Sequence record: MZ501074
Source of the DNA: Escherichia phage HildyBeyeler
Direction: 5' to 3' (one strand)
DNA: 64,000 nucleotides
Part shown: in pieces, positions 5,121 to 60,097 of the stretch
Layout of the letters: every line of letters starts with the position of its first letter
Numbering within the stretch: position 1 is the stretch's first letter
Notes under the pieces: model-generated
Database searches by the model: none
Told to the model about the DNA's origin: nothing
The model's input: the letters and a program-made list of their open reading frames with translations, nothing else
Program-made: the position numbers and the translations under genes

Positions 5121-6947
5121 TTACTTAAGATTTAAGTGTTTTACTCTACCAAGAACTTCTTTTTGTTTCCCAGAATTGAAAGGCCTACTGCTAGGGGATC
5201 CCAAGTACCCGCAAACCCTACGTGTAACCTCTATTTCTTCAGACCCACAACTCGGACATACAAACCCACGTTCAGAGGCAACAGATTCACCCATATACCC
5301 ACAGTTGAAGCACTCATCAATTGGTATATTAACACCAATATAATGGCTACATTCTAGCCCCTTATCCACCACATACTCAAGAGCTTTGTGGAACTTTTTC
5401 ATTTGAGGTAGTTCCACAAATGATATATTACCACCATTAGCTATTTTGGTAAAATGAGCCTCGTACTCAAATTTAGTATCTGGGGCTACCTTCTCTCTTA
5501 CGTCCAAATGGTGACTATTAGTGAGATAGCCTTTATCTGTTAGCCAAGAATACTCTGGGAATCTACGTTCTAGTAATTTATTAAAACGATTACATAGAGA
5601 CTCACTAGGAGTAGCGTATAAGCTAAATCCAAGATTAGTCTCATTAGCTTTAACTTCGCAACGATTTTTTAGGTGAGTAAGAACTTCTTCTGTAAATTCA
5701 ATACAATCCCTATGGGTTTGTGGTAGACCAAACATTATTTGGCACATCTCATAGACCCCAATGTATCCAAGAGATACAGAAGATCTACCCTCAAAAATAG
5801 GCCATACATACTCTTCCCCATCTAAACGCACACCAAAACCACCGTGCATATAAAGAATAGGGGCTTGTTTAGCCTTAACTTTCTTCAGTCTGTTTAAGAA
5901 GAAGTCATGCGCTTCAAAAGCCTCATCCACATATTTGTCTAGAATATCCCAGAAATCTTCAAAAACCCCATCTGCCTCAGCAGCAACCATAGGTAGATTA
6001 ATAGACACTACACCTAAATTATTGCGCCCTGCAATTTCTCCGGAGGGGATAGCAGATAAAAAGCTACGACAACCCATAGGTGCTTTAAAATCACCAGTAA
6101 CAGCTACAACTTTCTCATAGCTTAAATAGTCCGGGTACATACGGGTAGCAGAACACTCAAGTGCTAGCTGTTTTATATCGTAGTTAGGATCGCCTGGATT
6201 TTTATTTAACCCTTCTTTAACTGAGAATACTAGTTTAGGGAAGATAGGGGTTGACTCAGCAGCACCTAAACCTTTAATACGGTTTTGGAGGATGGCTTTC
6301 TGAATCATCCTTTCCTCCCACTCCTGTCCTAGCCCAAAGCCAAGCGTAACAAAAGGAGTCTGTCCATTAGAGTTAAATAATGAATTAGTTTCATACTCTA
6401 GGGCTTGGAATGCGTCATAACACTCTTTTTCAGTGAGTTCAGTAGCATATACAGCAGCTTTCCTTTCATCCTTGAGCCAACGTAGACCACGACCCAGGTG
6501 CTTATCATAAGACTTTCTGACATAAGGGGCTAAAACCTCATCGATACGATCAATAGAAGTGCCACCATACTGAGCACCAGATACTTGGGCAATAATCTGA
6601 GCAGTGATTGCACATGCAGTAGTTATGGATTTAGGAGTTTCAATATTTGCATTACCAATTTTAGTACCATTCTTCAGCATGCCACCAAGGTCTACTAAAC
6701 AACAGTTAGTGTATCCCTGTGCCCTGTAATCCATATCATGGATGTGTATTTTACCTAGATTATGGGAGTCTAATAGATGTTTAGGTAATTCTTGTGCTAC
6801 TAAATACTTGTTGATTTCTCCAGCTAATAAGTCTCTTTGGGTATGGAACATCTCACTAGGCTTATTAGCATTATTATGTTGTAAGTCCTTATCAGCAGTT
6901 AGAGTGAGCAGGCCTTTGCAATTCTCAATTAATTCATTCTCTGTCAT
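5121..6947 (-). CDS. nrdD: anaerobic ribonucleoside-triphosphate reductase (class III RNR)
   Basis: 608 aa; C-terminal CxxC..CxxC zinc ribbon followed by RVCGY glycyl-radical motif. Confidence 0.9.
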   Translation of the reverse strand: MTENELIENCKGLLTLTADKDLQHNNANKPSEMFHTQRDLLAGEINKYLVAQELPKHLLDSHNLGKIHIHDMDYRAQGYTNCCLVDLGGMLKNGTKIGNANIETPKSITTACAITAQIIAQVSGAQYGGTSIDRIDEVLAPYVRKSYDKHLGRGLRWLKDERKAAVYATELTEKECYDAFQALEYETNSLFNSNGQTPFVTLGFGLGQEWEERMIQKAILQNRIKGLGAAESTPIFPKLVFSVKEGLNKNPGDPNYDIKQLALECSATRMYPDYLSYEKVVAVTGDFKAPMGCRSFLSAIPSGEIAGRNNLGVVSINLPMVAAEADGVFEDFWDILDKYVDEAFEAHDFFLNRLKKVKAKQAPILYMHGGFGVRLDGEEYVWPIFEGRSSVSLGYIGVYEMCQIMFGLPQTHRDCIEFTEEVLTHLKNRCEVKANETNLGFSLYATPSESLCNRFNKLLERRFPEYSWLTDKGYLTNSHHLDVREKVAPDTKFEYEAHFTKIANGGNISFVELPQMKKFHKALEYVVDKGLECSHYIGVNIPIDECFNCGYMGESVASERGFVCPSCGSEEIEVTRRVCGYLGSPSSRPFNSGKQKEVLGRVKHLNLK

Positions 6948-7423: not shown

Positions 7424-8176
7424 ATGGGAAAAGCACGTCAAAAAAGAGAGAACCGCAATGGTTCAAGAAAGCGTGGCAACAAATATGAGAATAACGTAAT
7501 TCAGGCTGATTTTTCTAATGATTACGCTAACCCAGTTGCTAAATCCCTAGTAGGTAAAAACCGAGAGCAAAAATCATATATCAATATGATCAAGAACAAC
7601 ACAGTGACTGTGGGTATCGGTGAGCCAGGTACAGGTAAAACCTTTATCCCGTCTGTTCTTGCAGCTCAGGAACTCGTAGACATTCACTCAGATATTGAGC
7701 AAGTGATCCTCGTACGTCCTAATGAACCTCTAGGTAAGTCTCTTGGTATGCTTCCTGGTGATCTAGCAGAAAAGCTAGAGCCTTGGTTGGAGCCAATAGC
7801 TGATGGTATGAAATGGGCCATCGGTGATCATGCCTATAGGGGATACGTCGAACGTCAGAAAATTAAATTTTTGGCTATCGAACATGCTCGTGGCAGAACT
7901 TTCAACAACTCCTATGTAATTGTCGATGAAGCTCAGAATATTTCCGTTGAGGCAATGATTTGTCTCCTAACTCGTGTAGGACAAGACTGCCGTTTAATTA
8001 TCTGCGGAGATATAGCTCAGAAAGACATTAAAGGTGACTCAGGTCTAGCACTCCTTATGGAAGTCTATGAGAAATACGAAAATGCCCCCTTCTCAATGAT
8101 CGAATTGATTGATAACGTTCGTTCTGCTGAGTCTAAAGCATTCTACGATATTTTTAAAGACATGGGGAAGGTGTAA
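7424..8176 (+). CDS. phoH: PhoH-like ATPase
   Basis: Walker A GEPGTGKTF and VDEAQN; ATG 7424 with AGGAG 8 nt upstream (track start 7415 is GTG). Confidence 0.8.
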   Translation: MGKARQKRENRNGSRKRGNKYENNVIQADFSNDYANPVAKSLVGKNREQKSYINMIKNNTVTVGIGEPGTGKTFIPSVLAAQELVDIHSDIEQVILVRPNEPLGKSLGMLPGDLAEKLEPWLEPIADGMKWAIGDHAYRGYVERQKIKFLAIEHARGRTFNNSYVIVDEAQNISVEAMICLLTRVGQDCRLIICGDIAQKDIKGDSGLALLMEVYEKYENAPFSMIELIDNVRSAESKAFYDIFKDMGKV

Positions 8177-49414: not shown

Positions 49415-49767
49415 AATCTCATAGATTAAAAACATCAACTTGTTTTTACCTCTAGGCCGTAGATTTACATCATTCCTCGTAGGAAAACACTTGATGACGG
49501 TTCTGTTCGCAGGTTCTCGTCAATTGTTCTTCCTCCCCGAGACTCAGGAGGATGTATCAAATCGCACGCGCCTAGAGGGGCTAACTCTCATGAAATGGGG
49601 GTATATTAACTTTTAAATAACTGATAAATATTTAAAGGCAATATCTGTGTTCAAGATGATACACCTGTTGCCGCTCATCTGCTAGGATGGCACAACACTT
49701 TCTTCTAGACTCCTAAGTTTCTAGGAAATTGATAAGCACAAATTCTAGAGATCGCACAAAAATATTC

Positions 49768-50546
49768 ATCGGATTTGCACATATTCTAGGAAATTGATAA
49801 GTACAAAAATATTCATCGGATTTGCACATATTCTAGGGCAGTTTCTCTCAAACGTTACACATACTAGGCGGTTAATATAGGGCGGTTATAGGGAGGGCGG
49901 TTATTTCTAGGAGACATTTTTTGAAAACACATTTCTGGATTTTACTGTCGGATTTGCACACTGCATTTCTAGAAATTTATGGTCGGATTTGCACAAACGC
50001 CTAAGTTTTTAGGAACATATAATCTCTTGAAAATGGCAGCATTATTTCGGGCCGAAGGCCCATGATTGCCTGAGTTTTTAGAGCCACAGGAATTTTCACT
50101 TGTCAAGCTATTTTGCCCCATTTTGCTAATAAAATTTTACTTTTTCTGCACCTATCTCAAATTTCCCCAAATTATCTCAACTCTTCCCCAAAACCCCGCA
50201 AATCAGGTGCTCCGCACCAATCCTGCGCCCACACCATTCTAGCCTCCCAAATTTCTCTCGCTCTCTCATCTTCTCCTCAAACCTATACAATCACACACCC
50301 TCTCATCGAAGTCACAAAAATTTCATCGGATTCGCACAAATAAACCCATGTCGGATTTGCACATATTCTAGCTAATTCCACAGGATTGATGCGCAGCATC
50401 GGATTGCTGGAGTTTTTGGGAAAATTCGTCGTCGGATTCGCACATCACAAAAGTTTTTAGGGTCGGATTTGCACACTACCAAAAATTGTCGGATTCGCAC
50501 ATACACGCCCGCACGTAACACCCGTGGAGCAATGTCGGATTTGCAC
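49768..50546 (+). repeat. ten direct copies of 13-bp iteron TCGGATT(T/C)GCACA
   Basis: Copies start at 49768, 49815, 49947, 49982, 50325, 50350, 50431, 50462, 50488, 50534, all same orientation. Confidence 0.85.
49866..49902 (+). repeat. three direct copies of GGCGGTTA at 14-15 bp spacing
   Basis: Copies at 49866, 49880, 49895. Confidence 0.7.
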
Positions 50547-50575
50547 AAAAGCGCAGGGCAATTGCCCTGCGACTT

Positions 50576-50800
50576 TGAATGAGAATCATTATCATTTAAG
50601 AAGTGGAATGCAAATGATAATTATTCTCATTTAAGAAGTGGAATGATTCTCATTTAATAAGTGGAATGCAAATGATAATTATTCTCATTTAAGAAGTGGA
50701 ATGAGAACTATTCAAGAAGTGAAACGATTCTCATTAAAGAAGCGAAACGATTCTCATCCTAGAAAGGGAATGCAAATGATAATGATTCTCATTTAAAAAC
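50576..50800 (+). repeat. tandem array of about 24-bp units (GATTCTCATTTAAGAAGTGGAATG and variants)
   Basis: About eight degenerate contiguous units read directly. Confidence 0.8.
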
Positions 50801-50822
50801 GGAAGTGAGAAACACTGTTATT

Positions 50823-50936
50823 TAAGTTATCCACAGACTTATTAACAGCACGATTTGACTTGACAGAATCCTAGCCATTTTGAGGCGTTATCCACAGACT
50901 TATCCACAGCTTATTCTACTGTATAAATATACAGTA
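50823..50936 (+). promoter_or_regulatory. left inverted repeat with three perfect DnaA boxes and 20-bp palindrome
   Basis: TTATCCACA at 50827, 50888, 50900; TACTGTATAAATATACAGTA at 50917-50936. Confidence 0.8.
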
Positions 50937-51191
50937 TTCCTACGCAGTGAATAATTCTAATATAGGCCTAAAACGTCCTGAATCGCATTCTAGCGCGTTT
51001 TATTTTGGCGGGGATACTAAAACAAGGGCAAAACTGGAGGAGGCTTAGAAATTAGTTAGCTCGCTAACGATCACACAAGGCGACACGTAACACCCTAATC
51101 ATTAGCAGGCTAACCATCGCGGGCGCGGTCAAATGAGAATCATTCTCATTTGAGGATTGGGGGCACTTCCTGATAATTGCCCCCGTGATTA

Positions 51192-51386
51192 TTAGTCCGG
51201 TAATTGATGCGTGATCTTCTCCTCTTCCCCGTAGGAATCGACTAAATGCTGATAATAACCATCATGATCATAAATGACTTTATCATATTCGCCCAGCTCG
51301 ACCGCTTGCCGGTTTTCCGGAGTATCGGGCACATAAAAAACGTCAACCATTGTGGTAGTTTTGGTCACAATAATTTTATCGCTCAT
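51192..51386 (-). CDS. hypothetical protein
   Basis: ORF track; last gene of leftward operon. Confidence 0.4.
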   Translation of the reverse strand: MSDKIIVTKTTTMVDVFYVPDTPENRQAVELGEYDKVIYDHDGYYQHLVDSYGEEEKITHQLPD

Positions 51387-51401
51387 AATAACGCCCCGTT
51401 A

Positions 51402-51683
51402 TTAGTTGACTATCTCAAAGATAGCGTTCTCAAGTGTCGCCCTTAGGATCCCATCGCGCCCTACTACGGAATACTTGAGATCAGGTATTTTGTAACGCTC
51501 AATTGCTTTGAGTAATTGATCTTTTTGGGCTTTATATTTTTGCCCTTCTCGCGCTATCGTGTCGCCTTCGGCTTTAATGCAAATCAGTGTAACCATAATA
51601 ATCCCCCTAGTAAATATATTTTTGCCAATAGCGGCGAACGTTATCGCCACCAGCGGAATCATTAGCTGCCTTACTATTACCAA
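51402..51683 (-). CDS. hypothetical protein (start uncertain)
   Basis: ORF track; possible internal start at MVTLICIK. Confidence 0.4.
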   Translation of the reverse strand: MVIVRQLMIPLVAITFAAIGKNIFTRGIIMVTLICIKAEGDTIAREGQKYKAQKDQLLKAIERYKIPDLKYSVVGRDGILRATLENAIFEIVN

Positions 51684-51707
51684 CGAAAATATATAATCTC
51701 ATTAGTA

Positions 51708-51869
51708 TTATTTTCCCCGCATTAATTTATACATAACTAACATCCCGCAAAACTGACCTAAGATAGTGCAGACAACAAGGGATAACACAATATTGCCTAT
51801 GGTGTTATAAGTAACCACACCAACAATAAGGGATAATGCATACCCTAGCAGGGCAATATAAACAGCCAT
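51708..51869 (-). CDS. hypothetical mini membrane protein (53 aa)
   Basis: Hand translation MAVYIALLGYALSLIVGVV...; not in ORF track. Confidence 0.35.
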   Translation of the reverse strand: MAVYIALLGYALSLIVGVVTYNTIGNIVLSLVVCTILGQFCGMLVMYKLMRGK

Positions 51870-51878
51870 ATTATTTAC

Positions 51879-52214
51879 CTATTTTCGAAACGCTGTTTCA
51901 ATACTATCAGCCGTGGATTGAATATACGCGCCTTTCATTATCAGGCGCTCGGTGCATACTTTGCGAAAAATATTAATAAAATCATCTTCATTTTCTGCGA
52001 TTAACGCCTCCCCCATGACCTGAATATCACACGATGCAAAGGTCAAAAATTGAAACGCTAGTTCACGGGCGACGACCGCATTAATTTTATAATGCGCCTT
52101 TCCATCGTAAATATTAACAACGCCCTTATATTCAGGCGAAAGCTGATTTAAGTAGTTTGCTAATAATCCCGGGCGGCAATTAGTAACAAAGCGATTCCCT
52201 TCATAAATTACCAT
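51879..52214 (-). CDS. hypothetical protein
   Basis: ATG 52214 (MVIYEGNRF) preceded by GGGAGG; track ORF 51879-52229. Confidence 0.45.
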   Translation of the reverse strand: MVIYEGNRFVTNCRPGLLANYLNQLSPEYKGVVNIYDGKAHYKINAVVARELAFQFLTFASCDIQVMGEALIAENEDDFINIFRKVCTERLIMKGAYIQSTADSIETAFRK

Positions 52215-52215
52215 T

Positions 52216-52341
52216 TTATAACCTCCCAATCAGATAGCCAGATAAAAGCATAAAAATCCCCAGCGAACTAGGGTCATTCTTAAACAAGGTGGCGGTAAAA
52301 CCGCCAACCATTGCAAGGATAACAACAATAACGCTTTTCAT
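52216..52341 (-). CDS. hypothetical mini membrane protein (41 aa)
   Basis: Hand translation MKSVIVVILAMVGGFTATLF...; ATGA-coupled to upstream gene; not in ORF track. Confidence 0.35.
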   Translation of the reverse strand: MKSVIVVILAMVGGFTATLFKNDPSSLGIFMLLSGYLIGRL

Positions 52342-52550
52342 AGTACCCCACGAAACGCAGCGTAAAAGGTGGCAAAGTGTCTAACCGTTTCAGCTATCAC
52401 GTTGCCGCGCTTATCGAATTTTTTCTCGGTAACACGAAAGGCGTTTTTATTCCGTGCTACATATTCGATTTTACAATCTTCCCGCTCGAACGTGTTAACG
52501 TCCACCAGCTTAAAGCCTTTGGAACGAGCAAGGGAAACATTACGAATCAT
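52338..52550 (-). CDS. hypothetical protein
   Basis: ORF track. Confidence 0.4.
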   Translation of the reverse strand: MIRNVSLARSKGFKLVDVNTFEREDCKIEYVARNKNAFRVTEKKFDKRGNVIAETVRHFATFYAAFRGVL

Positions 52551-52552
52551 TT

Positions 52553-52741
52553 TTATTCTCCTTTACTATTCATGCAGCCCAGCAGATAAGAAAATACAGC
52601 GACACCCGCGCCAATAATAACCATAGGTTTAGTATTTGCTAAACTGCAATAAGAATCCTGAATACCATAAGCGGTGGCGAAAAGAGTCAAAATAGCGCCC
52701 AAGATACCTGCTAAAAAAGCCCGAAAAATAACCATTTTCAT
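52553..52741 (-). CDS. hypothetical two-helix membrane protein
   Basis: ORF track; two hydrophobic stretches. Confidence 0.4.
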   Translation of the reverse strand: MKMVIFRAFLAGILGAILTLFATAYGIQDSYCSLANTKPMVIIGAGVAVFSYLLGCMNSKGE

Positions 52742-52781
52742 TCTCCTAGTTAGTGGGGCGAAAGTAGCGCCCCGTTATTAC

Positions 52782-53012
52782 TTACATTAAAACGATTTTG
52801 GCGGCTTGTTTTTTGGTGCAATGTTCTGCTTTCAGGGTATCCAGCAAAAAGCCCGCCGTTTGCTGATCGATTTGATCATTATCATAAAGCGCCTGAATGG
52901 TAGTGTAAGTTTTAGCAATGCCGTATTCTTGCACCATTTCTTGAATGATCCAGCGATTTGATACCCAGCCTTTTCCAGTGAAAAGATGACTAGCAGAAGA
53001 ATAAGCAACCAT
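52782..53012 (-). CDS. hypothetical protein
   Basis: ORF track. Confidence 0.4.
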   Translation of the reverse strand: MVAYSSASHLFTGKGWVSNRWIIQEMVQEYGIAKTYTTIQALYDNDQIDQQTAGFLLDTLKAEHCTKKQAAKIVLM

Positions 53013-53130
53013 TATAAGCCTCCAAAATTTTTTGGGAAATTTTCAACCGTCCTCAAACGGTGTAAGGGCATTATAACAAAAAGGCCGCCATAATCGGCGA
53101 CCTTTACAAAACTTTACATTAGATTATTTA

Positions 53131-54123
53131 TTACTCGTTTTCGGTGTTAGTGGTAAAAGTAGAAATATCGATACCTTTTACCATTTCATCAATCATCTCA
53201 GCGATGTTAAAACTTTGCACCATTTCCAACATTGCCGCTTCCATAGCCGCTCCTGCTACCGCTTTCGCTTTCTGGTTATTCGGGGCGTACTGGTCAACCG
53301 CTACACTCAGCAGGTTAGCGATCACTACTCGACCGATCGGCGTATCAATATAGCCTTTAATCATAAATGGCGCTTTTTTAGCCGCTACTTTCGTGATTTG
53401 AGTTAGTGCAATTTTACCCGCTTCCAGTTTTGCAGCATTTACAACAGCGGATTTATTAGCGGCAACGATGTTAGCGATCTTAGTCATGGTATTTTTTCCT
53501 TTGTTTTCAGTGGTTTGAGTGTTAACGCTTTGAGTGTTAGAATTTACAGCATGTTTTTCTATATTGTCAATAGGCTGATCTTCATCTTTCCAGAAAGAAA
53601 AGCCCGCGCTTTCTATATCCCCATCGTATACGTATGGGTATACTTCCGACGGTAGCAAAAAATTGCCATCATCATCAAAGGCCATTACAGCCGCCAGACG
53701 ATACCCGTCACCGATTGACCGATTCCAGCCAACTGATAAATAACGCCAAAATGAATCAAGAAAGTTTTCAACGTCATAAAGATCCTTATCATAAGGCTCA
53801 TAATTTTCTATTGAAAAAACTTCTAAGCCCGCCCCAGCATCATAGGCTTTTACTGTGCTACCTTTTACGATTATGAAATCAGTGTCCGGCCCCCTACTAG
53901 TAAGCAGGTGATTATCCCTATTATATAAGATAATAGTTGCCCCTTGCTTATATAATGGTAGAAAACTACTCATATCATAGGCGTCGAAATCATCAAAAAA
54001 ATTCTGGTGAATATCTTCGGCCTTGTTAACAAAGTGCTTAATGCTGGTTGTTCTGCTACCGTCCAGCAGGTTGCGCAGCGCACCTTTTAAGACGGTTGCG
54101 TTATCTGGTTTATATAGCCTCAT
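53131..54123 (-). CDS. hypothetical two-domain protein (330 aa)
   Basis: ORF track; acidic N-terminal domain, N/T/Q-rich linker, A/K-rich C-terminal domain; no motif recognised. Confidence 0.55.
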   Translation of the reverse strand: MRLYKPDNATVLKGALRNLLDGSRTTSIKHFVNKAEDIHQNFFDDFDAYDMSSFLPLYKQGATIILYNRDNHLLTSRGPDTDFIIVKGSTVKAYDAGAGLEVFSIENYEPYDKDLYDVENFLDSFWRYLSVGWNRSIGDGYRLAAVMAFDDDGNFLLPSEVYPYVYDGDIESAGFSFWKDEDQPIDNIEKHAVNSNTQSVNTQTTENKGKNTMTKIANIVAANKSAVVNAAKLEAGKIALTQITKVAAKKAPFMIKGYIDTPIGRVVIANLLSVAVDQYAPNNQKAKAVAGAAMEAAMLEMVQSFNIAEMIDEMVKGIDISTFTTNTENE

Positions 54124-54389
54124 TTGTTGGCCTCCCTCGTTAATCGGTGAGTGAATGATAAAGGCAATTTTCTAGCATAGGCAAATATTATTTTACCTTT
54201 TTATTTTCCTTGCCTAGCGCCTAGTTTTATGCTAACCGCGCAGCGGTACAGTAAAGAGCAAAACACGGTGAAGCCACCAGGCCGACGCGTTGAGGCTTTA
54301 CTTTAATATTACCCCACTGCGTTTAGCTCGTTAGAAAGCGATTTAGGCCGCTTAAAATTGATTGCAGTTGTTAACACTACCTTTTTACC

Positions 54390-54497
54390 CTGTATATTTA
54401 TACAGTAGGATAACCTGTGGATAAGTCTGTGGATAAGCCCTTATATCGCCGCCTATTGTGTCAAATCATTTTGTGCTGTGATTAAGTCTGTGGATAA
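54390..54497 (-). promoter_or_regulatory. right inverted repeat with three DnaA boxes (reverse orientation) and palindrome
   Basis: TGTGGATAA at 54416, 54428, 54489; CTGTATATTTATACAG at 54390-54405; mirrors 50823-50936. Confidence 0.8.
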
Positions 54498-54538
54498 CTT
54501 AAATGATAGTTTTTCTCACTTAGGCCGATAGTTTCTTA

Positions 54539-54580
54539 TAGTGATTATTTTTATAGTGATTATTTTTATAGTTATTATTT
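54539..54580 (+). repeat. tandem 15-bp AT-rich repeats (ATAGTGATTATTTTT)
   Basis: Two perfect units plus one degenerate, read directly. Confidence 0.6.
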
Positions 54581-55247
54581 CTCATTAATTTATATGTATA
54601 TTATATAATATGAAATAGTTAGTTGGCTAATGAGATTTTACGGGATTAGTAGTCTGCTAATGGTTCAGGCTGTTACAATCCACCAGCACGATTATCATTC
54701 TAGTAATTATTAGTCTGCTATCTTTCTAATACACAACAACAAATAAAAGTCAATTAATTAATTTTATAAAATAACTCATTTAGTCTTGATTTTTAAAAGT
54801 CAATACCTTTTACAACTATTTTTCAATTTTGCTTTTATTAAATATTTGTTAAGTCGAAAATAAGCCGCCTAAAACGCCCTAGAAAGCGGTAAAATTTTCA
54901 GGTATCCCATCATAAGGGGATAGCCCGTTTATCGTCACCTGATGGATTCTAGAAAAATCAAGTAGGGCAAGGCAAATATAAGTGAAAAAATTACTTGCCT
55001 ATCTGCTATGTTTTGTGGTATCCGCGCGCCCGTTTCCTTTAAACTTGGGCAATCGCCGGACACCTTGCTTTCTTTACATTTCTTTACAAAAATAAGGTTG
55101 CGCCATTTTTGGTATTTGCTATTATTTACCTCGTAGGGCGGCAATGACGAACTACACGGCGGGAAGTTTACCGCCGCGCTCTTTAAAAATTGGGTATATC
55201 TTAAAGTCTATCGGCGGCAAACTTATACATTATAAGGAATCGCAGAT

Positions 55248-55451
55248 ATGAAACAAACTTTATTGATCACTGGCAAGCCAGCTAAAAAACTGGATGGCAA
55301 TACTAGAAAGCTGTTGACAGTAGCGCAAAGATCAGTAAAATATCGATTTAAGCAGTACAAGAAAGGCCGCCAGCAAGGTCTAGAAATGATCTGGCGAAAT
55401 ATTATGATCGACCTAAAGGAAAATCATAAAAAACTGCAAAAAATTGTTTGA
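55248..55451 (+). CDS. hypothetical basic protein
   Basis: ORF track; AAGGAA RBS. Confidence 0.4.
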   Translation: MKQTLLITGKPAKKLDGNTRKLLTVAQRSVKYRFKQYKKGRQQGLEMIWRNIMIDLKENHKKLQKIV

Positions 55452-55679
55452 CAACCTAGCCGATAGGCTTTAAGATGTACCCAGTTCGATAAGAGCGATA
55501 ACTTGATACAATTTGACGGCCGGTACTTGCCATAATGTGCCCCGCCCCCTAACTGGGATATAGCGGCCCGCGTGGAGTTCTTTAAATTGATTATATTGGC
55601 AAGCGGATTTTTTCTTATTACCTGCTAGAAAGTAGCAGGTAATGCGGAACAATCCACTAAATAAACTGGAGTTTATACT

Positions 55680-55931
55680 ATGCAAAACATTACTAATGCG
55701 CCGAAAGTTGGTCAATCCGTTTTTATCCCTTTCGTTACTAAAACGGACGAGGCAACCGGAAAGGCCGAACGCATCAAAGGCGCGGCGCTTATGCCGTTTG
55801 ATGTGATTGATGCGGTATACGCTGAAACGGAACAGAGTAACAACGGGAAAACCGTTTTTAGCGTTCGCGTTAAATCCGGCGACGTTGTAAAGGTTGCCCA
55901 GCGTAACGAAAAATGGGAAGCTGTAGCGTAA
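55680..55931 (+). CDS. hypothetical protein
   Basis: ORF track; followed by CCCCCAG...CGGGGGG hairpin. Confidence 0.45.
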   Translation: MQNITNAPKVGQSVFIPFVTKTDEATGKAERIKGAALMPFDVIDAVYAETEQSNNGKTVFSVRVKSGDVVKVAQRNEKWEAVA

Positions 55932-56034
55932 TATAGTGTTAACTTTATATTCCCCCAGTAGTTCGGGGGGAATATAACGATTAACATTATGTTAATCATT
56001 TAATCCCTTAAATTAAATCGATAGGAGCTATATC

Positions 56035-56451
56035 ATGACTAACGTTAAAGCCGAAAAATCCGCAAAATTTGCTTGGAATGAAGAAAACACCCAGCAGGCG
56101 GTTACTATGTATCAGCAGTTAATTAATGAAAACGGATTAGATTTTGCAAATAGCGACGGTTTAAAAGAGATTGCGAAAGCAGTTGGCGCGGCTTCTCCCG
56201 TGTCCGTTCGGTCAAAATTGACCAGCGCGAAAGCCTATCAAAAAAGCGATAAGCCGCGCAAAGTTGGCGGCGGCAGTTCAATCCGCAAAGCGCATTACGT
56301 GCGCGTTATTGCAAAACATGCCATCGATTCCGGCATTATCAAGGACGCCGATGATCTGGCATCACTGGAAAGCGCAAAATTAGAAACGTTGGACGTCGTG
56401 GCGCAGATGTTAGGCGTTGCCGATGAAGTAAAACAAGCCGCAGGCGAATAA
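56035..56451 (+). CDS. hypothetical protein
   Basis: ORF track; GGAG RBS. Confidence 0.45.
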   Translation: MTNVKAEKSAKFAWNEENTQQAVTMYQQLINENGLDFANSDGLKEIAKAVGAASPVSVRSKLTSAKAYQKSDKPRKVGGGSSIRKAHYVRVIAKHAIDSGIIKDADDLASLESAKLETLDVVAQMLGVADEVKQAAGE

Positions 56452-56540
56452 TAGTTATATCTTGCCCCTTCTAGCGAGGGGGCAATAATATAACTGTTTA
56501 GCGATAGTTATTTTCTTCCCCTAAATCAGGAGTTTTAAAA

Positions 56541-56738
56541 ATGATCTTTTACCCTACTGAATCGCTCATTCTAGGATTATTTATTATGGCGGCCTCATTA
56601 TTGTTTGCTTATTTCCAAAATGATCTGGATTCGTATTATTTTAAGCGCAAAGCTAAATTAGCAAAGCGGTTGGGCTTACTTTGCTTAATTGCCGCCGTTG
56701 CTTGTGGTGTTAGTTCTAGCCTGATGCCGATTAGTTAA
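56541..56738 (+). CDS. hypothetical membrane protein
   Basis: ORF track; two TM helices; hairpin ATAACGCC...GGCGTTAT downstream. Confidence 0.4.
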   Translation: MIFYPTESLILGLFIMAASLLFAYFQNDLDSYYFKRKAKLAKRLGLLCLIAAVACGVSSSLMPIS

Positions 56739-56835
56739 ATATCGCAAGTTATAACGCCTATTATTTAAGGCGTTATATCTGGCAATATTGCCAATAACAA
56801 ACGTTTTTTAATCCCTTTAATGGAGTTTTATTATT

Positions 56836-58506
56836 ATGGTTATTTCCGCAGAAAAACAAACCCAGATCCTCAACCTTGCCGCTGATTTCAATTTCTATGG
56901 TAAACGTCTGCGCGCTACTAAGCTGGAAGTTTGTGACGATATTTCAAAAGCTGTTTATGATACGCCGAAACATTCCACCGCTATTTGTGACTGGTTGGAA
57001 GCAAATAAACCAGCGAAACCGAAAGCGGCGAAAGTAGCAAAAGCCATAAAAAACGATGACCGCCCTGAAGCCGCTGGAGTTATTTCTAGCACGGTGGAGC
57101 AATGGGAAGTAAAACAAGGCAAACGCTTTATCATTACATCGATTCAGAATAATACTTTCCCGCATAAAAACTTTTTGGCCGCGCTTGAACAATATGCCCA
57201 ATTTATTGGAGCTGATTTGCTGGTTAGCAAGTATATTTATAATAAAAACGGTTTTCAAAATGGGGAAGGGGCAGACGGAATCAAATATGATTCTGCATTT
57301 GACAAATATATTTGCAGCAAAAACGTGTTTTTAAATAACCGCCGCTTTGCTTTCATGGCTGAAATTAATGTTTTGCCAACCGCAGATTATCCGCTATCTG
57401 GATTTGCTGAAACTGCAACCGCGCTTAATCTGGAAGGTCTGGCAATTGGTCACGCTAAAATCACCGCCGAAAGCGTGCCAGCTTTAAAAGGTGAAGTAGT
57501 GCGCCGCATGTATTCAACCGGAACGGCAACGCTAAAAAATTACATTCAGCAGAAGGCAGGGCAAAAAGCGGAAGCGTTACATAATTTTGGTGCGCTGATT
57601 GTCGAGTTCGACGAGGACGGAGAATTTTTTGTTCGCCAGCTTGAAACGATGGACGAAAGCGGCGTTTTTTACGATTTGAATATTTGCGCCACTCCCACCG
57701 GATGCTATGAAACAACGGGGCACGTTTTAGGTTTACAGTATGGTGACATCCACGCTGAAAAATTAGATGAAGAGTGCGCCGCTGCATCATGGGGGCATGG
57801 TGATACCTATGGGCTTGTGGATATTCTCAAACCAAAATATCAATTCGTCCATGACGTGCATGATTTTACATCACGCAACCATCACAACCGCGCCTCCGGT
57901 GTATTCCTAGCAAAACAGTACGCCGCCGGACGTGATAAGGTTCTGGATGATCTTATCGATACGGGGCGCGTACTGGAAGCAATGGAGCGTGATTTCTCTC
58001 AAACAATCATTGTTGAATCGAATCACGATCTGGCGTTATCCCGCTGGCTTGATGATCGTAATGCTAACATTAAAGACGACCCAGCAAACGCGGAACTATA
58101 TCACCGCCTGAATGCCGCGATTTACGGAGCTATCGCAGAAAAAGACGAAACCTTCAACGTGCTTGATTATGCGTTGCGCAAGGTTGCAGGTTGCGAGTTT
58201 AACGCCATTTTCCTAACGACTGACCAATCTTTCAAGATTGCAGGCATTGAATGCGGCGTACACGGTCACAATGGCATTAACGGGAGTCGTGGCAATCCTA
58301 AACAGTTTAAGAAATTGGGCAAATTAAACACGGGGCATACTCATACGGCAAGCATTTACGGCGGTGTATATACCGCTGGCGTTGCTGGTAGTCTGGACAT
58401 GGGTTACAACGTTGGCGCGTCAAGCTGGACGCAAACGCATATTATTACCTATGTAAACGGTCAGCGCACTTTGATTGACTTTAAGAATGGTAAATTTTTC
58501 GCATAA
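56836..58506 (+). CDS. A1: A1-like pre-early protein, metallophosphoesterase-type nuclease
   Basis: 556 aa; GDIH, ESNHD and GVHGHNG phosphoesterase motifs; size and context recalled to match T5 A1. Confidence 0.5.
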   Translation: MVISAEKQTQILNLAADFNFYGKRLRATKLEVCDDISKAVYDTPKHSTAICDWLEANKPAKPKAAKVAKAIKNDDRPEAAGVISSTVEQWEVKQGKRFIITSIQNNTFPHKNFLAALEQYAQFIGADLLVSKYIYNKNGFQNGEGADGIKYDSAFDKYICSKNVFLNNRRFAFMAEINVLPTADYPLSGFAETATALNLEGLAIGHAKITAESVPALKGEVVRRMYSTGTATLKNYIQQKAGQKAEALHNFGALIVEFDEDGEFFVRQLETMDESGVFYDLNICATPTGCYETTGHVLGLQYGDIHAEKLDEECAAASWGHGDTYGLVDILKPKYQFVHDVHDFTSRNHHNRASGVFLAKQYAAGRDKVLDDLIDTGRVLEAMERDFSQTIIVESNHDLALSRWLDDRNANIKDDPANAELYHRLNAAIYGAIAEKDETFNVLDYALRKVAGCEFNAIFLTTDQSFKIAGIECGVHGHNGINGSRGNPKQFKKLGKLNTGHTHTASIYGGVYTAGVAGSLDMGYNVGASSWTQTHIITYVNGQRTLIDFKNGKFFA

Positions 58507-58561
58507 TTAAATTATTCCCTAGCGGCTTGAAATATAGCCGCTATTACAGGAGCCACAAAAA

Positions 58562-58852
58562 ATGAAAATTAATTTACCTAGCAATGAATTTTCCCCTAAA
58601 ACTTCTTTACTAGATGATATTTCTTATCAAGATGCTTATATAAATGAGGAAGTATATCGCGCTTGTTCTGACCTCCTAGAATATCCCGATTATCCAATCT
58701 ATAAAGGTGATTTCATTATACCCGTTTATAATGGTGTGCTAGTAGTAGGCAAAGCTGGGGTTATTGTTATAGATAGTTGTACATTGTCACAAGAAACGTT
58801 TAAAGTGCCACTAGAGTTAACTAATTATTCTCCTAGTATTACAGTACAATAA
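58562..58852 (+). CDS. hypothetical protein
   Basis: ORF track. Confidence 0.4.
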   Translation: MKINLPSNEFSPKTSLLDDISYQDAYINEEVYRACSDLLEYPDYPIYKGDFIIPVYNGVLVVGKAGVIVIDSCTLSQETFKVPLELTNYSPSITVQ

Positions 58853-58889
58853 ATTAAGTCCCTTATTAAACTAATTGGAGTTTATAAAT

Positions 58890-59282
58890 ATGAAAAAGCA
58901 AAATATCCCATTCGATCGCGCTCAGTCTTCTATCGTTCTGGTTTATTCTAATGGTGCGCGGTATCACGTCGAGGCCGGTCACGTTGTCGATGACTTAATC
59001 GAGTTTAATGACGTTTTGCAGGTTACTACTTTCGCCTATACCACGGGCAAGCTATCCAGCCGCATCAAGGCGAAAGGCGTTCACATTGACACGATGAAAC
59101 AAGAAACCATCATTATTGACGCGGTAAAATCCGGCCTAGCCTTTGCAGTTGTCGCGCCTTGCCCCGCTTGCCTTGATGATCAGCTAATGAGCGCAAAAGT
59201 ATTTACTTGTGCGGGGATTCGTTCCGATGTATCAGGTGAAGATATTAGTTTTATCGCTGATGCGCTGGCTTATGGTCTTTGA
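58890..59282 (+). CDS. A2-like pre-early protein (about 15 kDa)
   Basis: ATG 58890 after GGAG; position between A1-like and dmp-like genes. Confidence 0.35.
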   Translation: MKKQNIPFDRAQSSIVLVYSNGARYHVEAGHVVDDLIEFNDVLQVTTFAYTTGKLSSRIKAKGVHIDTMKQETIIIDAVKSGLAFAVVAPCPACLDDQLMSAKVFTCAGIRSDVSGEDISFIADALAYGL

Positions 59283-59320
59283 TAGTTGATTTATTATTGC
59301 CCGCTGATAAATAGCGGGCA

Positions 59321-60097
59321 ATGCTGGATAAACTAAATCCCTTTAATGGAGAACGTAACAAAATGAATCAAGTTAAAACGAATATTACCCGTAATTTCCC
59401 GCATGTTTCCCGCGTCATGATCTGGGATCTGGATGGCACTATCGTTAACTCATTCCATCGCGTAGCGCCTTGCTTTGATAGTGATGGTAATCTAGATCTG
59501 AATAAGTATAAAAATGAAGCGTGCAAACATGATTTAATAATGCAAGATACTTTATTGCCGCTTGTTACATATATGCGCCAATGCATGAATGACGCAAATA
59601 CTTTAAACATTATTTGTACCGCTCGACTGATGAGCAAGTCGGACTATTATTATTTGCGCAAACAAGGCTTGCGAGGGCGTGGGAATAGCAATATCCGTGT
59701 ATTTTCCCGCGATACACTGCATAAGTATTTTGAAGCTGATAAAGTTAGCGAAATATACCACAGTAAGGACGCAGTTTATAAAAGCCACTACTTTGAGTTA
59801 TTTAAGCAGTTATATCCGAACGCTGATTTCACGATGATAGACGATCATAAAGGTGTGCTAGCAGCGGCGGCATCATACGGATTTAAAACGTTGGACGCGC
59901 AAGCCGTTAACGATATTCTATCAATCGGTGTTACATTGATAGGCGAAACCTTTATCGACGAATCTCTTGAGGATGATAATGATTATCAGTTCCTAGTCGA
60001 TCGCTTGCAATTATGTTGGGAAAGTATGACCGAGGAAGAACGCGCAGAATATAGTTGCAGCCCGCAACAATATATCGAGAAACTAAAAGTTGCATAG
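59321..60097 (+). CDS. dmp: HAD-superfamily 5-prime deoxyribonucleotidase-like protein
   Basis: MIWDLDGTIVNS HAD motif I; 258 aa; pre-early context. Confidence 0.55.
   Translation: MLDKLNPFNGERNKMNQVKTNITRNFPHVSRVMIWDLDGTIVNSFHRVAPCFDSDGNLDLNKYKNEACKHDLIMQDTLLPLVTYMRQCMNDANTLNIICTARLMSKSDYYYLRKQGLRGRGNSNIRVFSRDTLHKYFEADKVSEIYHSKDAVYKSHYFELFKQLYPNADFTMIDDHKGVLAAAASYGFKTLDAQAVNDILSIGVTLIGETFIDESLEDDNDYQFLVDRLQLCWESMTEEERAEYSCSPQQYIEKLKVA

What the first reader, a model, noticed from the sequence alone, without database searches (positions are those of the whole stretch)
51192..54123. Nine-gene operon of uncharacterised proteins, GC-richer than the early region, including three mini membrane proteins
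Gene order right to left: a 330-aa two-domain protein, 76-aa, 62-aa (two TM), 70-aa, 41-aa (TM), 112-aa, 53-aa (TM), about 64-93-aa and 64-aa products, several translationally coupled (ATGA overlaps, GGGAGG RBS). None shows a motif I can assign. The block sits next to A1/A2/dmp-like pre-early genes, so it is probably injected and expressed first. That makes it a prime candidate for host-takeover or anti-defence functions, or a small toxin/immunity set.
Basis: partly seen in the sequence, partly recalled or inferred. Interest (0 to 1): 0.8.

Follow-up and report, generated by a model that had tools for sequence, protein, structure and literature searches.

The report
T5-like phage pre-early accessory operon
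This is the already-described right-hand "pre-early" gene cluster of a T5-like phage (it matches Escherichia phage HildyBeyeler/Bas33 protein for protein), which enters the cell first and helps attack the host and blunt its defences; two of its ten small genes have published functions and the rest are still unassigned.

Summary
The block is not an unknown operon. It is the right-hand operon of the first-step-transfer (FST) terminal repeat of a Tequintavirus, homologous to T5 genes 011-017. Eight products are identical to bas33_0169-0174, 0176 and 0177 of phage HildyBeyeler (0175 not matched).

- **Coding:** every product tested across relatives shows purifying selection (dN/dS 0.05-0.25; T5.016 untested). 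I count ten ORFs, not nine. A conserved 31-aa ORF was missed, and the T5.016-like gene is most likely the 64-aa form.
- **Transcription:** a strong terminator followed by an invariant TGTTATAAT splits the block into two likely units.
- **Expression:** published Bas33 RNA-seq shows these genes stay on when only FST DNA is expressed.
- **Known functions:** the 111-aa product is 94% identical to T5.015, the Ung-dependent abasic-site nickase. The 70-aa product is 98.6% identical to T5 "orf015", which modulates bacterial NLR-like defence. RefSeq and PHROGs appear to put the nickase label on the 70-aa protein by mistake.
- **Other data:** T5 011, 013 and 015 are toxic when expressed alone, and a T5 mutant lacking hegG-017 (with left-arm deletions) is viable.

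The host-takeover and anti-defence reading is largely right but already published. The toxin/immunity idea has no support. New here: the 330-aa gene probably also makes a 118-aa C-terminal product.

The parts
54129..54216 (-). Promoter region of the first gene: -35 TTGCCT, 18-nt spacer, -10 TATCAT at 54184-54155, with an A-rich upstream stretch
   Evidence: The consensus scan finds the site. The region is almost identical to the promoter annotated at T5 6411-6489 and is conserved in five other phages. Annor 2026 states that a promoter upstream of T5 gene 011 was characterised experimentally.
53131..54123 (-). 330-aa protein, identical to bas33_0177 and homologous to T5.011 (DUF7566). It has an alpha/beta N-domain (residues 1-182), a disordered linker (183-227) and a helical C-module (about 213-326).
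   Evidence: Pfam PF24450 E=4e-112 and phrog_4263. 79% identical to T5.011. Exact match to bas33_0177. AF2 model pLDDT 74, N-domain about 90. No PDB fold match. dN/dS 0.05. T5.011 is toxic in E. coli.
53131..53487 (-). Candidate nested product: 118-aa C-terminal module translated from internal Met213 (ATG at 53487), with AAGGA 9 nt upstream
   Evidence: A Met lies at the module boundary in 125 of 141 diverse homologues, against 17% of control windows. An SD-like motif at 8-9 nt spacing is present in all 7 sequences examined, against 16% of random ATGs. The two halves are separate ORFs in Klebsiella phage vB_Kpn_B01. Gene calls of 118 aa exist in public data. This is inferred and not shown.
53080..53105 (-). 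Intrinsic terminator after the 330-aa gene: 10-11-bp stem (11 pairs in the scan, 10 in the RNA fold) followed by a T-run
   Evidence: Scan. Folding energy -16.4 kcal/mol. The stem is almost invariant across 7 phages (one C/T change in SPC35, which keeps a G-U pair). It corresponds to the terminator annotated at T5 7534-7559.
53070..53078 (-). TGTTATAAT, a candidate extended -10 promoter for the downstream genes
   Evidence: Invariant in all 7 phages aligned. AY587007 annotates a putative pre-early promoter T5P5 at the same place. In Bas33, bas33_0176 RNA is about two-thirds of bas33_0177 despite the terminator between them. The promoter is inferred.
52782..53012 (-). 76-aa protein, identical to bas33_0176 and homologous to T5.012; function unknown
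   Evidence: 95% identical to T5.012. phrog_5145. dN/dS 0.15. Not toxic in T5 screens.
52755..52773 (-). GC-rich hairpin GGGGCG...CGCCCC after the 76-aa gene; possible attenuator
   Evidence: Folding energy -11.7 kcal/mol. Bas33 RNA drops about 4-fold between bas33_0176 and bas33_0175. The attenuator role is inferred.
52553..52741 (-). Two-TM mini protein homologous to T5.013, long-loop allele. It is 62 aa from the first ATG; the likely start is the second ATG at 52735 (60 aa).
   Evidence: About 89-92% identical to T5.013. Two hydrophobic segments. Alleles of 49 aa and 59-62 aa exist. T5.013 expression lysed part of the cells in Annor 2026 and was not toxic in Mahata 2021.
52338..52550 (-). 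70-aa basic protein (pI 10.1), identical to bas33_0174 and homologous to T5.014, which is 'ORF015' (AAX11952.1) in the AY587007 numbering; modulator of bacterial NLR-related (bNACHT) defence
   Evidence: 98.6% identical to T5.014. AAX11952.1 is this 70-aa protein. Kibby 2022: orf015 weakens bNACHT11/12/25/32 protection, rescues the toxicity of hyperactive bNACHT25, and is mutated in T5 escapers of bNACHT01. dN/dS 0.07.
52216..52341 (-). 41-aa hydrophobic mini protein, identical to bas33_0173. It is absent from T5 and overlaps the 70-aa gene's stop by ATGA.
   Evidence: tblastn finds it in 158 phage records, including a 49%-identical variant of similar length (41 or 46 aa to the first stop) in the same slot. 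phrog_19184. dN/dS 0.25. Caveat: only 3-6 RNA-seq reads are assigned to it in Bas33, probably a counting artefact.
51879..52214 (-). 111-aa protein, identical to bas33_0172 and homologous to T5.015, the Ung-dependent endonuclease that nicks abasic sites
   Evidence: 94% identical to T5.015. UniRef names the family 'DNA-(apurinic or apyrimidinic site) endonuclease'. Function from Mahata 2021. Toxicity reproduced by Annor 2026. dN/dS 0.06.
51708..51869 (-). 53-aa two-TM mini protein, identical to bas33_0171; a rare cassette absent from T5
   Evidence: Found in only 38 phage records. No PHROG or Pfam family. Intact in all 8 sequences compared, dN/dS 0.21. Transcribed in Bas33, RPKM about 500-680. 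An unrelated 52-aa TM ORF occupies the same slot in phage KPP2018.
51607..51702 (-).
   Evidence: Intact in 10 of 11 phages, pN/pS 0.36 against 1.48 for the overlapping T5.016-extension frame. In T5 its ATG overlaps the T5.015 stop. It is annotated in ZJUN2, ESCO40, JLBYU43 and others. The evidence is modest.
51402..51596 (-). 64-aa core of the T5.016 homologue (bas33_0170 is annotated as the 86-aa form, extending to 51662); a very rare cassette
   Evidence: The cassette is bounded on both sides by the junction GGGG(C)GTTATTATG, and relatives lacking it join exactly there. It occurs in only 8 phage records: T5, ESCO30 and IME178. 93-95% identical to T5.016.
51192..51386 (-). 64-aa acidic protein (pI 4.4), identical to bas33_0169 and homologous to T5.017; function unknown
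   Evidence: 89% identical to T5.017. phrog_6973. dN/dS 0.10. Present in 294 records, including Epseptimavirus S113. Low RNA in Bas33, RPKM about 35.
51129..51184 (-). Two hairpins downstream of the last gene, marking the start of the injection-stop-signal-like repeat region
   Evidence: Folding energy -25.9 kcal/mol. The palindrome AAATGAGAATnATTCTCATTT recurs through 50575-51152. In T5 the injection stop signal begins at the end of T5.017.

Best explanation
The block is the right-hand pre-early operon of the first-step-transfer (FST) terminal repeat of a Tequintavirus. The window matches Escherichia phage HildyBeyeler (Bas33).

**How it works.** After adsorption only the roughly 8% terminal-repeat DNA enters the cell. 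Host sigma-70 RNA polymerase transcribes this block leftwards from a strong promoter upstream of the 330-aa gene. A second, extended -10 promoter just after that gene's terminator very likely also contributes. Tightly packed, partly coupled ORFs then produce a set of independent accessory effectors during the pause before the rest of the genome enters.

**Functions known from near-identical T5 orthologues:**
- The 111-aa protein binds host uracil-DNA glycosylase and nicks the abasic sites it creates. This stops host replication and division.
- The 70-aa basic protein interferes with bacterial NLR-related (bNACHT) immune proteins.
- The 330-aa DUF7566 protein disturbs nucleoid organisation.
- The two-TM T5.013-like protein damages the envelope when over-produced.

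**Variable parts.** The 41-aa, 53-aa and T5.016-like genes are cassettes swapped between phages at stop-SD-start junctions.

**Dispensability.** The block is not needed for growth on laboratory E. coli. Its value is most likely conditional on the host, for example on which defence systems the host carries and on its Ung/dUTP status.

**Shown:** homology, synteny, coding constraint and pre-early expression in Bas33. **Inferred by homology:** the biochemical functions in this phage. **Inferred:** the second promoter, the roles of the mini-proteins, and conditional fitness value.
For: - **Synteny and identity with T5 011-017** inside the annotated FST repeat.
- **Exact protein identity** to bas33_0169-0174, 0176, 0177 and to Bas33 A1.
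- **Purifying selection** in frame for nine of the ten ORFs; T5.016 could not be tested.
- **Regulatory signals:** promoter conserved with the T5 promoter; terminator and TGTTATAAT invariant in 7 phages.
- **Expression:** in Bas33 RNA-seq, bas33_0169-0177 change only by log2FC -0.4 to -1.25 under daunorubicin, while sampled early and late genes fall by about 2^-4 to 2^-15.
- **T5.015 function:** Ung-dependent AP nickase. The UniRef name sits on the 114-aa family.
- **T5 orf015 (70 aa, AAX11952.1):** modulates bNACHT defence.
- **Toxicity** of T5 011, 013 and 015, and viability of a T5 mutant whose deletions include hegG-017.
- **Cassette variability** at conserved junctions.
Against: - Function is transferred from T5 orthologues. 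Nothing was measured for this phage's proteins.
- Seven of the ten products have neither a phenotype nor a function: the homologues of T5.012, T5.016 and T5.017, and the 41-, 53- and 31-aa ORFs. The 011 and 013 homologues have only a phenotype.
- Deleting the T5 block has no clear phenotype of its own on E. coli F. The smaller plaques appear only in a mutant that also lacks dmp and other genes.
[quoted passage not shown] Host-takeover details may therefore differ.
- RefSeq and PHROGs attach the nickase label to the 70-aa protein rather than the 111/114-aa protein. One of the two assignments must be wrong.
- The w41 gene has almost no assigned RNA-seq reads.
Confidence: 0.85

Rival explanations
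1. The block is a small toxin/immunity (toxin-antitoxin-like) set. The toxic products (the 330-aa, T5.013-like and T5.015-like proteins) would be held in check by neighbouring small proteins.
For: Three T5 orthologues are toxic when expressed alone. Small membrane proteins are interleaved with them.
Against: No product matches any toxin, antitoxin or defence family in Pfam, NCBIfam or PADLOC. T5.015 toxicity is explained by a host target, Ung. The interleaved mini-genes (41 aa, 53 aa) are absent from T5, which carries the same toxic genes. No neutralisation has been reported.
Confidence: 0.05
2. The block encodes core functions needed for second-step DNA transfer, replication or another housekeeping step of the phage cycle.
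For: It lies in the FST DNA beside A1 and A2, which are essential for second-step transfer.
Against: A T5 mutant keeping only A1, A2, hdi and 009 is viable. T5 escapers of bNACHT01 delete orf009-012, which covers hegG and T5.011. AY692264 annotates T5.011 as an unessential gene. DT571/2 and saus132 naturally lack most of 011, and several cassettes vary in presence. CRISPRi-ART names A1 and A2 among its top fitness genes.
Confidence: 0.03
3. The mini-ORFs (41 aa, 53 aa, 31 aa) are not genes. They would be conserved spacer or regulatory DNA between real genes that happens to stay open.
For: They are very short. Bas33 RNA-seq assigns only 3-6 reads to the 41-aa gene. The 31-aa ORF has weak statistics: pN/pS 0.36 over 96 nt, and a second frame scores 0.40. 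The 53-aa ORF is left unannotated in several records.
Against: The ORFs are intact in every relative compared. Variable sites are enriched about 2-fold at third codon positions for the 41- and 53-aa ORFs, and dN/dS is 0.21-0.25 in frame against 0.75-1.0 out of frame. A 49%-identical variant of the 41-aa protein keeps a similar length and its hydrophobic pattern. Each has an SD-like motif and tight coupling to its neighbours. An unrelated TM mini-ORF fills the same slot in KPP2018.
Confidence: 0.15
4. The RefSeq/PHROGs label is correct: the 70-aa protein is the Ung-dependent nickase and the 111-aa protein is of unknown function.
For: RefSeq T5, SPC35 and saus132 records and phrog_4227 carry this name on the 70-aa family. 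The 70-aa protein is lysine-rich and basic. Mahata 2021 inactivated the nickase by replacing three lysines.
Against: - Mahata's list of 13 genes fits NC_005859 locus tags, where T5.015 is the 114-aa protein.
- Annor 2026 cites NC_005859 explicitly and finds 015 toxic with the same phenotype, while 014 is not toxic.
- UniRef names the 114-aa family as the AP endonuclease.
- The 70-aa protein is called 'ORF015' only in AY587007, an obvious source of confusion.
- Kibby 2022 induced the 70-aa protein without growth inhibition.
Confidence: 0.1

Closest known systems
Bacteriophage T5 pre-early genes T5.011-T5.017 (right operon of the FST terminal repeat, NC_005859 6495-9157)
   Same: Same position between the divergent promoter region and the injection stop signal. 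Same order and strand. 79-99% protein identity for seven genes. Promoter and terminator are conserved.
   Different: This phage carries two extra membrane mini-genes (41 aa, 53 aa) that T5 lacks. Its T5.015 homologue ends 3 residues earlier. The N-domain of 011 is diverged. hegG is absent upstream.
T5.015, the Ung-dependent AP-site nickase (Mahata et al. 2021, PNAS; PMC8201957)
   Same: The 111-aa product is 94% identical over its whole length and belongs to the narrow Markadamsvirinae-restricted family that UniRef names DNA-(apurinic or apyrimidinic site) endonuclease.
   Different: No biochemical test was done on this allele. The C-terminal three residues are missing because the 53-aa cassette is inserted right after the gene.
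T5 'orf015' (AAX11952.1; T5.014 in NC_005859 numbering), a modulator of bacterial NACHT/NLR-related defence (Kibby et al. 2022 preprint, 10.1101/2022.07.19.500537)
   Same: The 70-aa product differs from the T5 protein at one residue (98.6% identity) and lies in the same operon position.
   Different: The mechanism is unknown even in T5. In T5 it acts together with orf008 (T5.007), whose homologue lies outside this block at 55680-55931.
Early 'host-takeover / anti-defence' gene arrays of other virulent coliphages, such as the T7 class I genes 0.3-0.7 and T4 immediate-early small ORFs (from general knowledge, not tested here)
   Same: It works like them. It is first-expressed, made of many small non-essential genes, often toxic to the host when expressed alone, mosaic between relatives, and aimed at host replication, division and immunity.
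   Different: There is no sequence or fold relationship. Here the timing is enforced physically by two-step DNA injection rather than by transcription-coupled entry or promoter class.

Membership tests
T5-like FST pre-early right operon (T5.011-T5.017) | Sequence homology and conserved gene order with T5 011-017 | tested here: met
   tblastn gives 79-99% identity for seven genes in the same order. Megablast finds 431 related phage records.
T5-like FST pre-early right operon (T5.011-T5.017) | Location inside the terminal repeat, between the divergent pre-early promoter region and the injection stop signal | tested here: met
   A1, A2, dmp and hdi homologues lie on the opposite strand at 55144-60094. 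The repeat-rich, injection-stop-like region lies at 49700-51160. Related records annotate the matching region as DTR or left terminal repeat. The second copy of the repeat is not in the window.
T5-like FST pre-early right operon (T5.011-T5.017) | Expression when only first-step-transfer DNA is expressed (pre-early class) | not testable with these tools
   Published Bas33 RNA-seq (Ernst 2026, Table S1): bas33_0169-0177 change by log2FC -0.4 to -1.25 under the daunorubicin block, while early and late genes collapse. This is taken from the paper, not computed here.
T5.015 Ung-dependent AP endonuclease family | Full-length sequence membership of the 114-aa family | tested here: met
   94% identity to T5.015. 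All 17 homologue clusters carry precomputed PF26847. The UniRef name is on T5.015 and on bas33_0172.
T5.015 Ung-dependent AP endonuclease family | Binds Ung, nicks abasic sites, and has ung-dependent toxicity | not testable with these tools
   This needs pull-down, nicking and ung-knockout toxicity assays. No solved structure exists for any relative.
T5 orf015/T5.014 bNACHT-modulating protein | Sequence identity with AAX11952.1 | tested here: met
   98.6% identity over 70 aa, and AAX11952.1 is confirmed as the 70-aa protein.
T5 orf015/T5.014 bNACHT-modulating protein | Suppresses bNACHT-mediated defence or toxicity | not testable with these tools
   Only the T5 data of Kibby 2022 are available.
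DUF7566 (PF24450) / T5.011 family | Pfam match above the gathering threshold over the full length | tested here: met
   E=4.1e-112, 375 bits against a cut-off of 27, residues 2-330.
Toxin-antitoxin or toxin/immunity module | Homology of any product to a known toxin, antitoxin, immunity or defence family | tested here: not met
   No significant hit in Pfam, NCBIfam, PADLOC or PDB sequences.
Toxin-antitoxin or toxin/immunity module | A cognate neighbour neutralises the toxic product | not testable with these tools
   This needs co-expression experiments. The candidate neighbours (41 aa, 53 aa) are absent from T5, which has the same toxic genes.
Holin or lysis membrane protein (for the T5.013-like two-TM protein) | Match to a holin family above threshold | tested here: not met
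   The best hit is Phage_holin_10 at E=0.053, 14 bits against a cut-off of 27. The gene lies in the pre-early region, not the lysis region.

The most novel reading that the evidence does not exclude
Among the still-unassigned products are further anti-defence effectors. These products are the homologues of T5.011, T5.012, T5.013, T5.016 and T5.017, and the 41-, 53- and 31-aa mini-proteins. On this reading they would include the unidentified FST-encoded factor that makes Tequintaviruses insensitive to type I/II/III restriction unless the sites lie in the FST DNA itself.

The evidence does not exclude this. The factor is expected to be made during the FST stage, and the mutant lacking hegG-017 was characterised only on E. 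coli strain F.

Against it: 011, 012-015 and 017 also occur in restriction-sensitive Epseptimaviruses, and A1 is an obvious alternative.
Probability: 0.15. Interest if true: 0.65.

Novelty: already known. Interest (0 to 1): 0.3.

Why it matters
The block itself is ordinary for a T5-like phage and is already annotated and partly studied. Three practical points remain.

1. **Annotation error.** A public annotation (RefSeq and PHROGs phrog_4227) very probably puts the 'Ung nickase' name on the wrong protein. The cause looks like the clash between T5.015 and ORF015 numbering, and the error is spreading to new phage records.
2. **Two products from one gene.** The DUF7566 gene appears to make two products. 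Its 118-aa C-terminal module is shared by hundreds of phage protein clusters with different N-domains, some of them HIRAN. That gives a concrete handle on a toxic protein that has resisted prediction.
3. **Open questions in T5 biology.** Most products here have no assigned function, in the very DNA segment that must hold some long-sought T5 activities such as restriction insensitivity. Deletion mutants and a well-characterised BASEL phage (Bas33) now make this directly testable.

Tried and rejected
- **First structure prediction.** AF2 on the 330-aa protein with 28 close homologues gave pLDDT 47 and was discarded. A deeper alignment with 50%-identity representatives gave pLDDT 74.
- **Sequence searches.** PDB sequence and profile searches for five products found nothing. 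Pfam, NCBIfam and PADLOC gave no informative family apart from DUF7566.
- **Papers not available.** Davison 2015 (PMC4743489) is not held, and the Mahata 2021 supplement is not held. The T5.014/T5.015 question therefore had to be settled indirectly.
- **Retron papers.** The papers on retrons Eco2 and Kva2 name triggers outside this block (A1, D5).
- **Presence/absence test.** A simple Tequintavirus-versus-Epseptimavirus comparison to pinpoint an anti-restriction gene failed. 011, 012-015 and 017 occur in both genera.
- **Rejected readings.** 'GC-richer' as a meaningful signal. The 86-93-aa form of the T5.016 homologue as the likely product.

Full report
**1. Observation**

After checking start codons and junctions, the products are:
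- 330 aa (53131-54123)
- 76 aa (52782-53012)
- 62 aa, or more likely 60 aa from the second ATG (52553-52735/52741)
- 70 aa (52338-52550)
- 41 aa (52216-52341)
- 111 aa from ATG 52214 (51879-52214)
- 53 aa (51708-51869)
- an ORF that can be read as 93, 86 or 64 aa (51402-51596/51662/51683)
- 64 aa (51192-51386)

Only the 70-aa to 41-aa junction is an ATGA overlap. Two more junctions have gaps of 1-2 nt, and GGGAGG precedes the 330-aa and 111-aa genes. GC content is 40.8% against 38.8% for the early region. A difference that size is reached by 11% of equal-sized windows, so it is not a meaningful signal.

**2. What the region is**

Megablast finds the block in 431 phage records, all T5-like (Salmonella, Escherichia and Shigella phages). 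The best hit is 94% identical, and the matching region is often annotated as direct terminal repeat or first-step-transfer DNA.

In phage T5 (NC_005859) the homologous segment is genes T5.011-T5.017. They lie in the left terminal repeat, downstream of an annotated promoter and upstream of the injection stop signal.

The rest of the window fits this picture:
- Homologues of T5.009, hdi (T5.008), T5.007, A2, T5.005, A1, T5.002 and dmp lie on the other strand at 55144-60094.
- A repeat-rich, injection-stop-like region lies at 49700-51160.

Exact-sequence look-ups show that eight products of the block, plus A1, are identical to proteins of Escherichia phage HildyBeyeler (Bas33, MZ501074; genus Tequintavirus). 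The matches are bas33_0169-0174, 0176 and 0177. The window is therefore Bas33 or an indistinguishable relative, and GenBank already annotates these genes there as hypothetical proteins.

**3. Gene-by-gene mapping**

| Window product | T5 homologue | Identity | Note |
|---|---|---|---|
| 330 aa | T5.011 | 79% | DUF7566, Pfam E=4e-112 |
| 76 aa | T5.012 | 95% | |
| 60/62 aa | T5.013 | 89-92% | two transmembrane segments |
| 70 aa | T5.014 | 98.6% | |
| 111 aa | T5.015 | 94% | |
| 64/86 aa | T5.016 | 93% | |
| 64 aa | T5.017 | 89% | |

The 41-aa and 53-aa genes are absent from T5. The 41-aa gene occurs in 158 phage records, including a 49%-identical variant of similar length (41 or 46 aa to the first stop) in the same slot. 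The 53-aa gene occurs in only 38 records and has no PHROG family. The T5.016 core occurs in only 8 records: T5, ESCO30 and IME178. Bas33 is thus unusual in combining both rare cassettes.

**4. Are they genes?**

I built codon-level comparisons with 8-13 distinct relatives for most genes (only three same-length sequences for the 330-aa and T5.013 genes). In-frame dN/dS is 0.05-0.25 for all eight products with enough orthologues, including the 41-aa (0.25) and 53-aa (0.21) mini-genes. The two control frames give 0.74-3.9.

An alignment of the segment between T5.015 and T5.017 shows a cassette structure:
- Relatives that lack the 53-aa gene or the T5.016 core join precisely at short stop-SD-start junctions (GGGG(C)GTTATTATG).
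- A 31-aa ORF (51607-51702) is intact in 10 of 11 phages. In T5 its ATG overlaps the T5.015 stop.
- Its pN/pS is 0.36, against 1.48 for the overlapping frame that would extend T5.016 to 86-93 aa.

I therefore read ten ORFs, with T5.016 as a 64-aa product. The evidence for the 31-aa ORF is modest.

**5. Transcription**

- The region upstream of the 330-aa gene is almost identical to the promoter annotated at T5 6411-6489, which Annor 2026 describes as experimentally characterised.
- Directly after the 330-aa gene there is a 10-11-bp-stem terminator (-16.4 kcal/mol) followed by TGTTATAAT. The motif is invariant and the stem almost so in seven phages, and AY587007 annotates a putative pre-early promoter at that spot.
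- The 'operon' is therefore probably two units.

Published Bas33 RNA-seq at 20 min (Ernst 2026, Table S1) gives these RPKM values for the two replicates without drug:

| Gene | RPKM |
|---|---|
| bas33_0177 | 3150 / 3930 |
| bas33_0176 | 2322 / 2405 |
| bas33_0175, 0174, 0172, 0171, 0170 | roughly 240-680 |
| bas33_0169 | 33 / 37 |

With daunorubicin, which confines expression to the pre-early genes, the block changes only by log2FC -0.4 to -1.25. Early and late genes fall by 2^-4 to 2^-15. The near-zero count for the 126-nt bas33_0173 and the 12-fold drop before bas33_0169 are unexplained. The first is probably a read-assignment artefact.

**6. Known functions**

[quoted passage not shown] They showed that T5.015 binds Ung and nicks the abasic sites Ung generates, which arrests replication and division.
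- **Toxicity and dispensability.** Annor 2026 cites NC_005859 and found 011, 013 and 015 toxic. Gene 011 disturbs the nucleoid, 013 lyses part of the cells, and 015 gives elongation with mid-cell DNA. They also built a viable T5 that retains only A1, A2, hdi and 009.
- **T5 orf015.** Kibby 2022 isolated T5 escapers of the NLR-like defence protein bNACHT01. The escapers carried mutations in orf008 (AAX11945.1) and orf015 (AAX11952.1). Orf015 alone weakened bNACHT11/12/25/32 protection and rescued the toxicity of hyperactive bNACHT25.

AAX11952.1 is the 70-aa protein, because AY587007 numbers the ORFs one higher than NC_005859 after splitting 011 in two. AAX11945.1 is T5.007.

This numbering clash very probably explains why RefSeq and phrog_4227 label the 70-aa family as the 'endonuclease nicking abasic sites generated by host uracil glycosylase Ung'. 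Four lines of evidence point to the 114-aa family as the nickase:
- the UniRef name;
- the gene list of Mahata 2021, which fits NC_005859 locus tags;
- the reproduced phenotype in Annor 2026;
- the lack of toxicity of the 70-aa protein in Kibby 2022.

I put about 0.9 on the 111-aa product being the nickase homologue and the 70-aa product being the bNACHT modulator.

**7. The 330-aa protein**

- A search of 1.84 billion representatives found 687 clusters at E<=1e-3. Most match only residues about 200-325, at the C-terminus of proteins of 110-540 aa with unrelated N-terminal parts. Two of ten sampled proteins carry an N-terminal HIRAN domain above Pfam's cut-off, with a third weaker hit, and stand-alone forms of about 120 aa exist.
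- With a deep alignment, AF2 gives a confident alpha/beta N-domain (residues 1-182, pLDDT about 90), a disordered linker and a helical C-module (pLDDT about 73).
- A Met sits at the start of the C-module in 125 of 141 diverse homologues, against 17% of control windows.
- In all seven sequences for which I had DNA, an SD-like motif (AAGGA, GGAG or AGGA) lies 8-9 nt upstream of that Met. This compares with 16% of random ATGs and 6 of 43 other in-frame Met codons.
- In Klebsiella phage vB_Kpn_B01 the two halves are separate ORFs, and 118-aa gene calls exist in public data.

I infer, at about 0.45 probability, that the gene also yields a 118-aa product from Met213 (53131-53487).

**8. Most likely mechanism**

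The block works as a set of independent, accessory early effectors. They are delivered by two-step injection and expressed by host RNA polymerase before the rest of the genome arrives.

- **Shown:** homology, synteny, coding constraint and pre-early expression in Bas33.
- **Inferred by homology:** nicking of uracil-containing host DNA through Ung, interference with NLR-like immunity, nucleoid disturbance and envelope damage.
- **Inferred:** the second promoter, the roles of the membrane mini-proteins, and the idea that the block's value depends on the host's defence repertoire.

**9. Rival readings**

- A toxin/immunity set is unsupported: no family matches, and the candidate 'immunity' genes are absent from T5.
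- A housekeeping role is refuted by the deletion mutants.
- Non-coding mini-ORFs are made unlikely by the substitution pattern.

**10. Novelty and verdict**

The operon, its timing, the toxicity of three members, the functions of two, and its dispensability are all published, and the very phage is annotated. It is already known, and I score its interest as low to moderate.

What remains open is the function of most products. A simple presence/absence comparison does not single out a Tequintavirus-specific anti-restriction gene here, because 011, 012-015 and 017 also occur in Epseptimaviruses.

Noticed in passing
window 51607-51702 (-): A 31-aa ORF (MRLYIFVGNSKAANDSAGGDNVRRYWQKYIY) lies between the 53-aa gene and the T5.016-like gene. 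It is intact in 10 of 11 related phages and in T5 is coupled to the T5.015 stop by ATGA. It is not annotated in Bas33, where the overlapping 86-aa bas33_0170 is called instead.
   Followed up: yes
window 53131-53487 (-), internal ATG at 53487: The DUF7566 gene probably has a conserved internal translation start (Met213) with an SD-like motif 8-9 nt upstream, giving a 118-aa C-terminal module. That module occurs in 687 protein clusters with varied N-domains, some of them HIRAN, and as a separate ORF in Klebsiella phage vB_Kpn_B01 (L018 1429-1797).
   Followed up: yes
window 52338-52550 (-); NC_005859 T5.014; phrog_4227: RefSeq and PHROGs name the 70-aa T5.014 family 'endonuclease nicking abasic sites generated by host uracil glycosylase Ung'. 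The published nickase T5.015 is most likely the neighbouring 114-aa protein. The 70-aa protein is 'ORF015' only in the AY587007 numbering, and it is the bNACHT modulator of Kibby 2022.
   Followed up: yes
window 49700-51160: Non-coding, injection-stop-signal-like region. It holds eight or more copies of the TGTCGGATT(T/C)GCACA motif in the main repeat family (more across overlapping families), repeated palindromes AAATGAGAATnATTCTCATTT, and two DnaA-box-like GTTATCCACAGACTTAT motifs at 50826 and 50887.
   Followed up: partly
window 53080-53105 (-) and L003 7534-7559: The terminator stem after the 330-aa gene is almost invariant (one C/T change in SPC35), but the 6-nt loop differs. It is GATTAT in the window and ZJUN2, and its exact reverse complement ATAATC in T5, LmqsSP1, Kenya-K20 and ESCO40. 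This looks like an inversion of the hairpin loop.
   Followed up: no
window 52216-52341 and 51192-51386 (bas33_0173, bas33_0169): In published Bas33 RNA-seq the 41-aa gene gets only 3-6 reads although both neighbours have hundreds of RPKM. RNA also falls about 12-fold between bas33_0170 and bas33_0169, at the small hairpin TAATAACGGGGCGTTATTA.
   Followed up: partly
L010 (Klebsiella phage KPP2018) 1759-2253 and 3469-3627; L017 (NBSal002) 1952-2443: Other cassettes occupy the same slots. A roughly 164-aa ORF (acidic in KPP2018) lies between 011 and 012 in KPP2018 and NBSal002. An unrelated 52-aa two-TM ORF sits in KPP2018 where this phage has the 53-aa gene. The slot after T5.015 seems to collect small membrane proteins.
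   Followed up: partly
window 54124-55250 and 58510-58890: The window has no homologue of the HNH endonuclease hegG (T5.010) or of T5.003 in its FST region. It does keep T5.009 and T5.016, which Annor 2026 lists among the rarest pre-early genes.
   Followed up: partly
window 55680-55931 (+): This 83-aa ORF is 90% identical to T5.007, which is 'orf008' (AAX11945.1) of Kibby 2022. That protein inhibited growth when co-expressed with bNACHT alleles, and in T5 escapers it is co-mutated with the 70-aa protein of this block.
   Followed up: partly
window 52553-52741 (-): T5.013 homologues come in two alleles that differ by an 11-residue loop between the two transmembrane segments: 59-62 aa here, in T5 and in SPC35, and 49 aa in ZJUN2, ESCO40, KPP2018 and saus132.
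   Followed up: no
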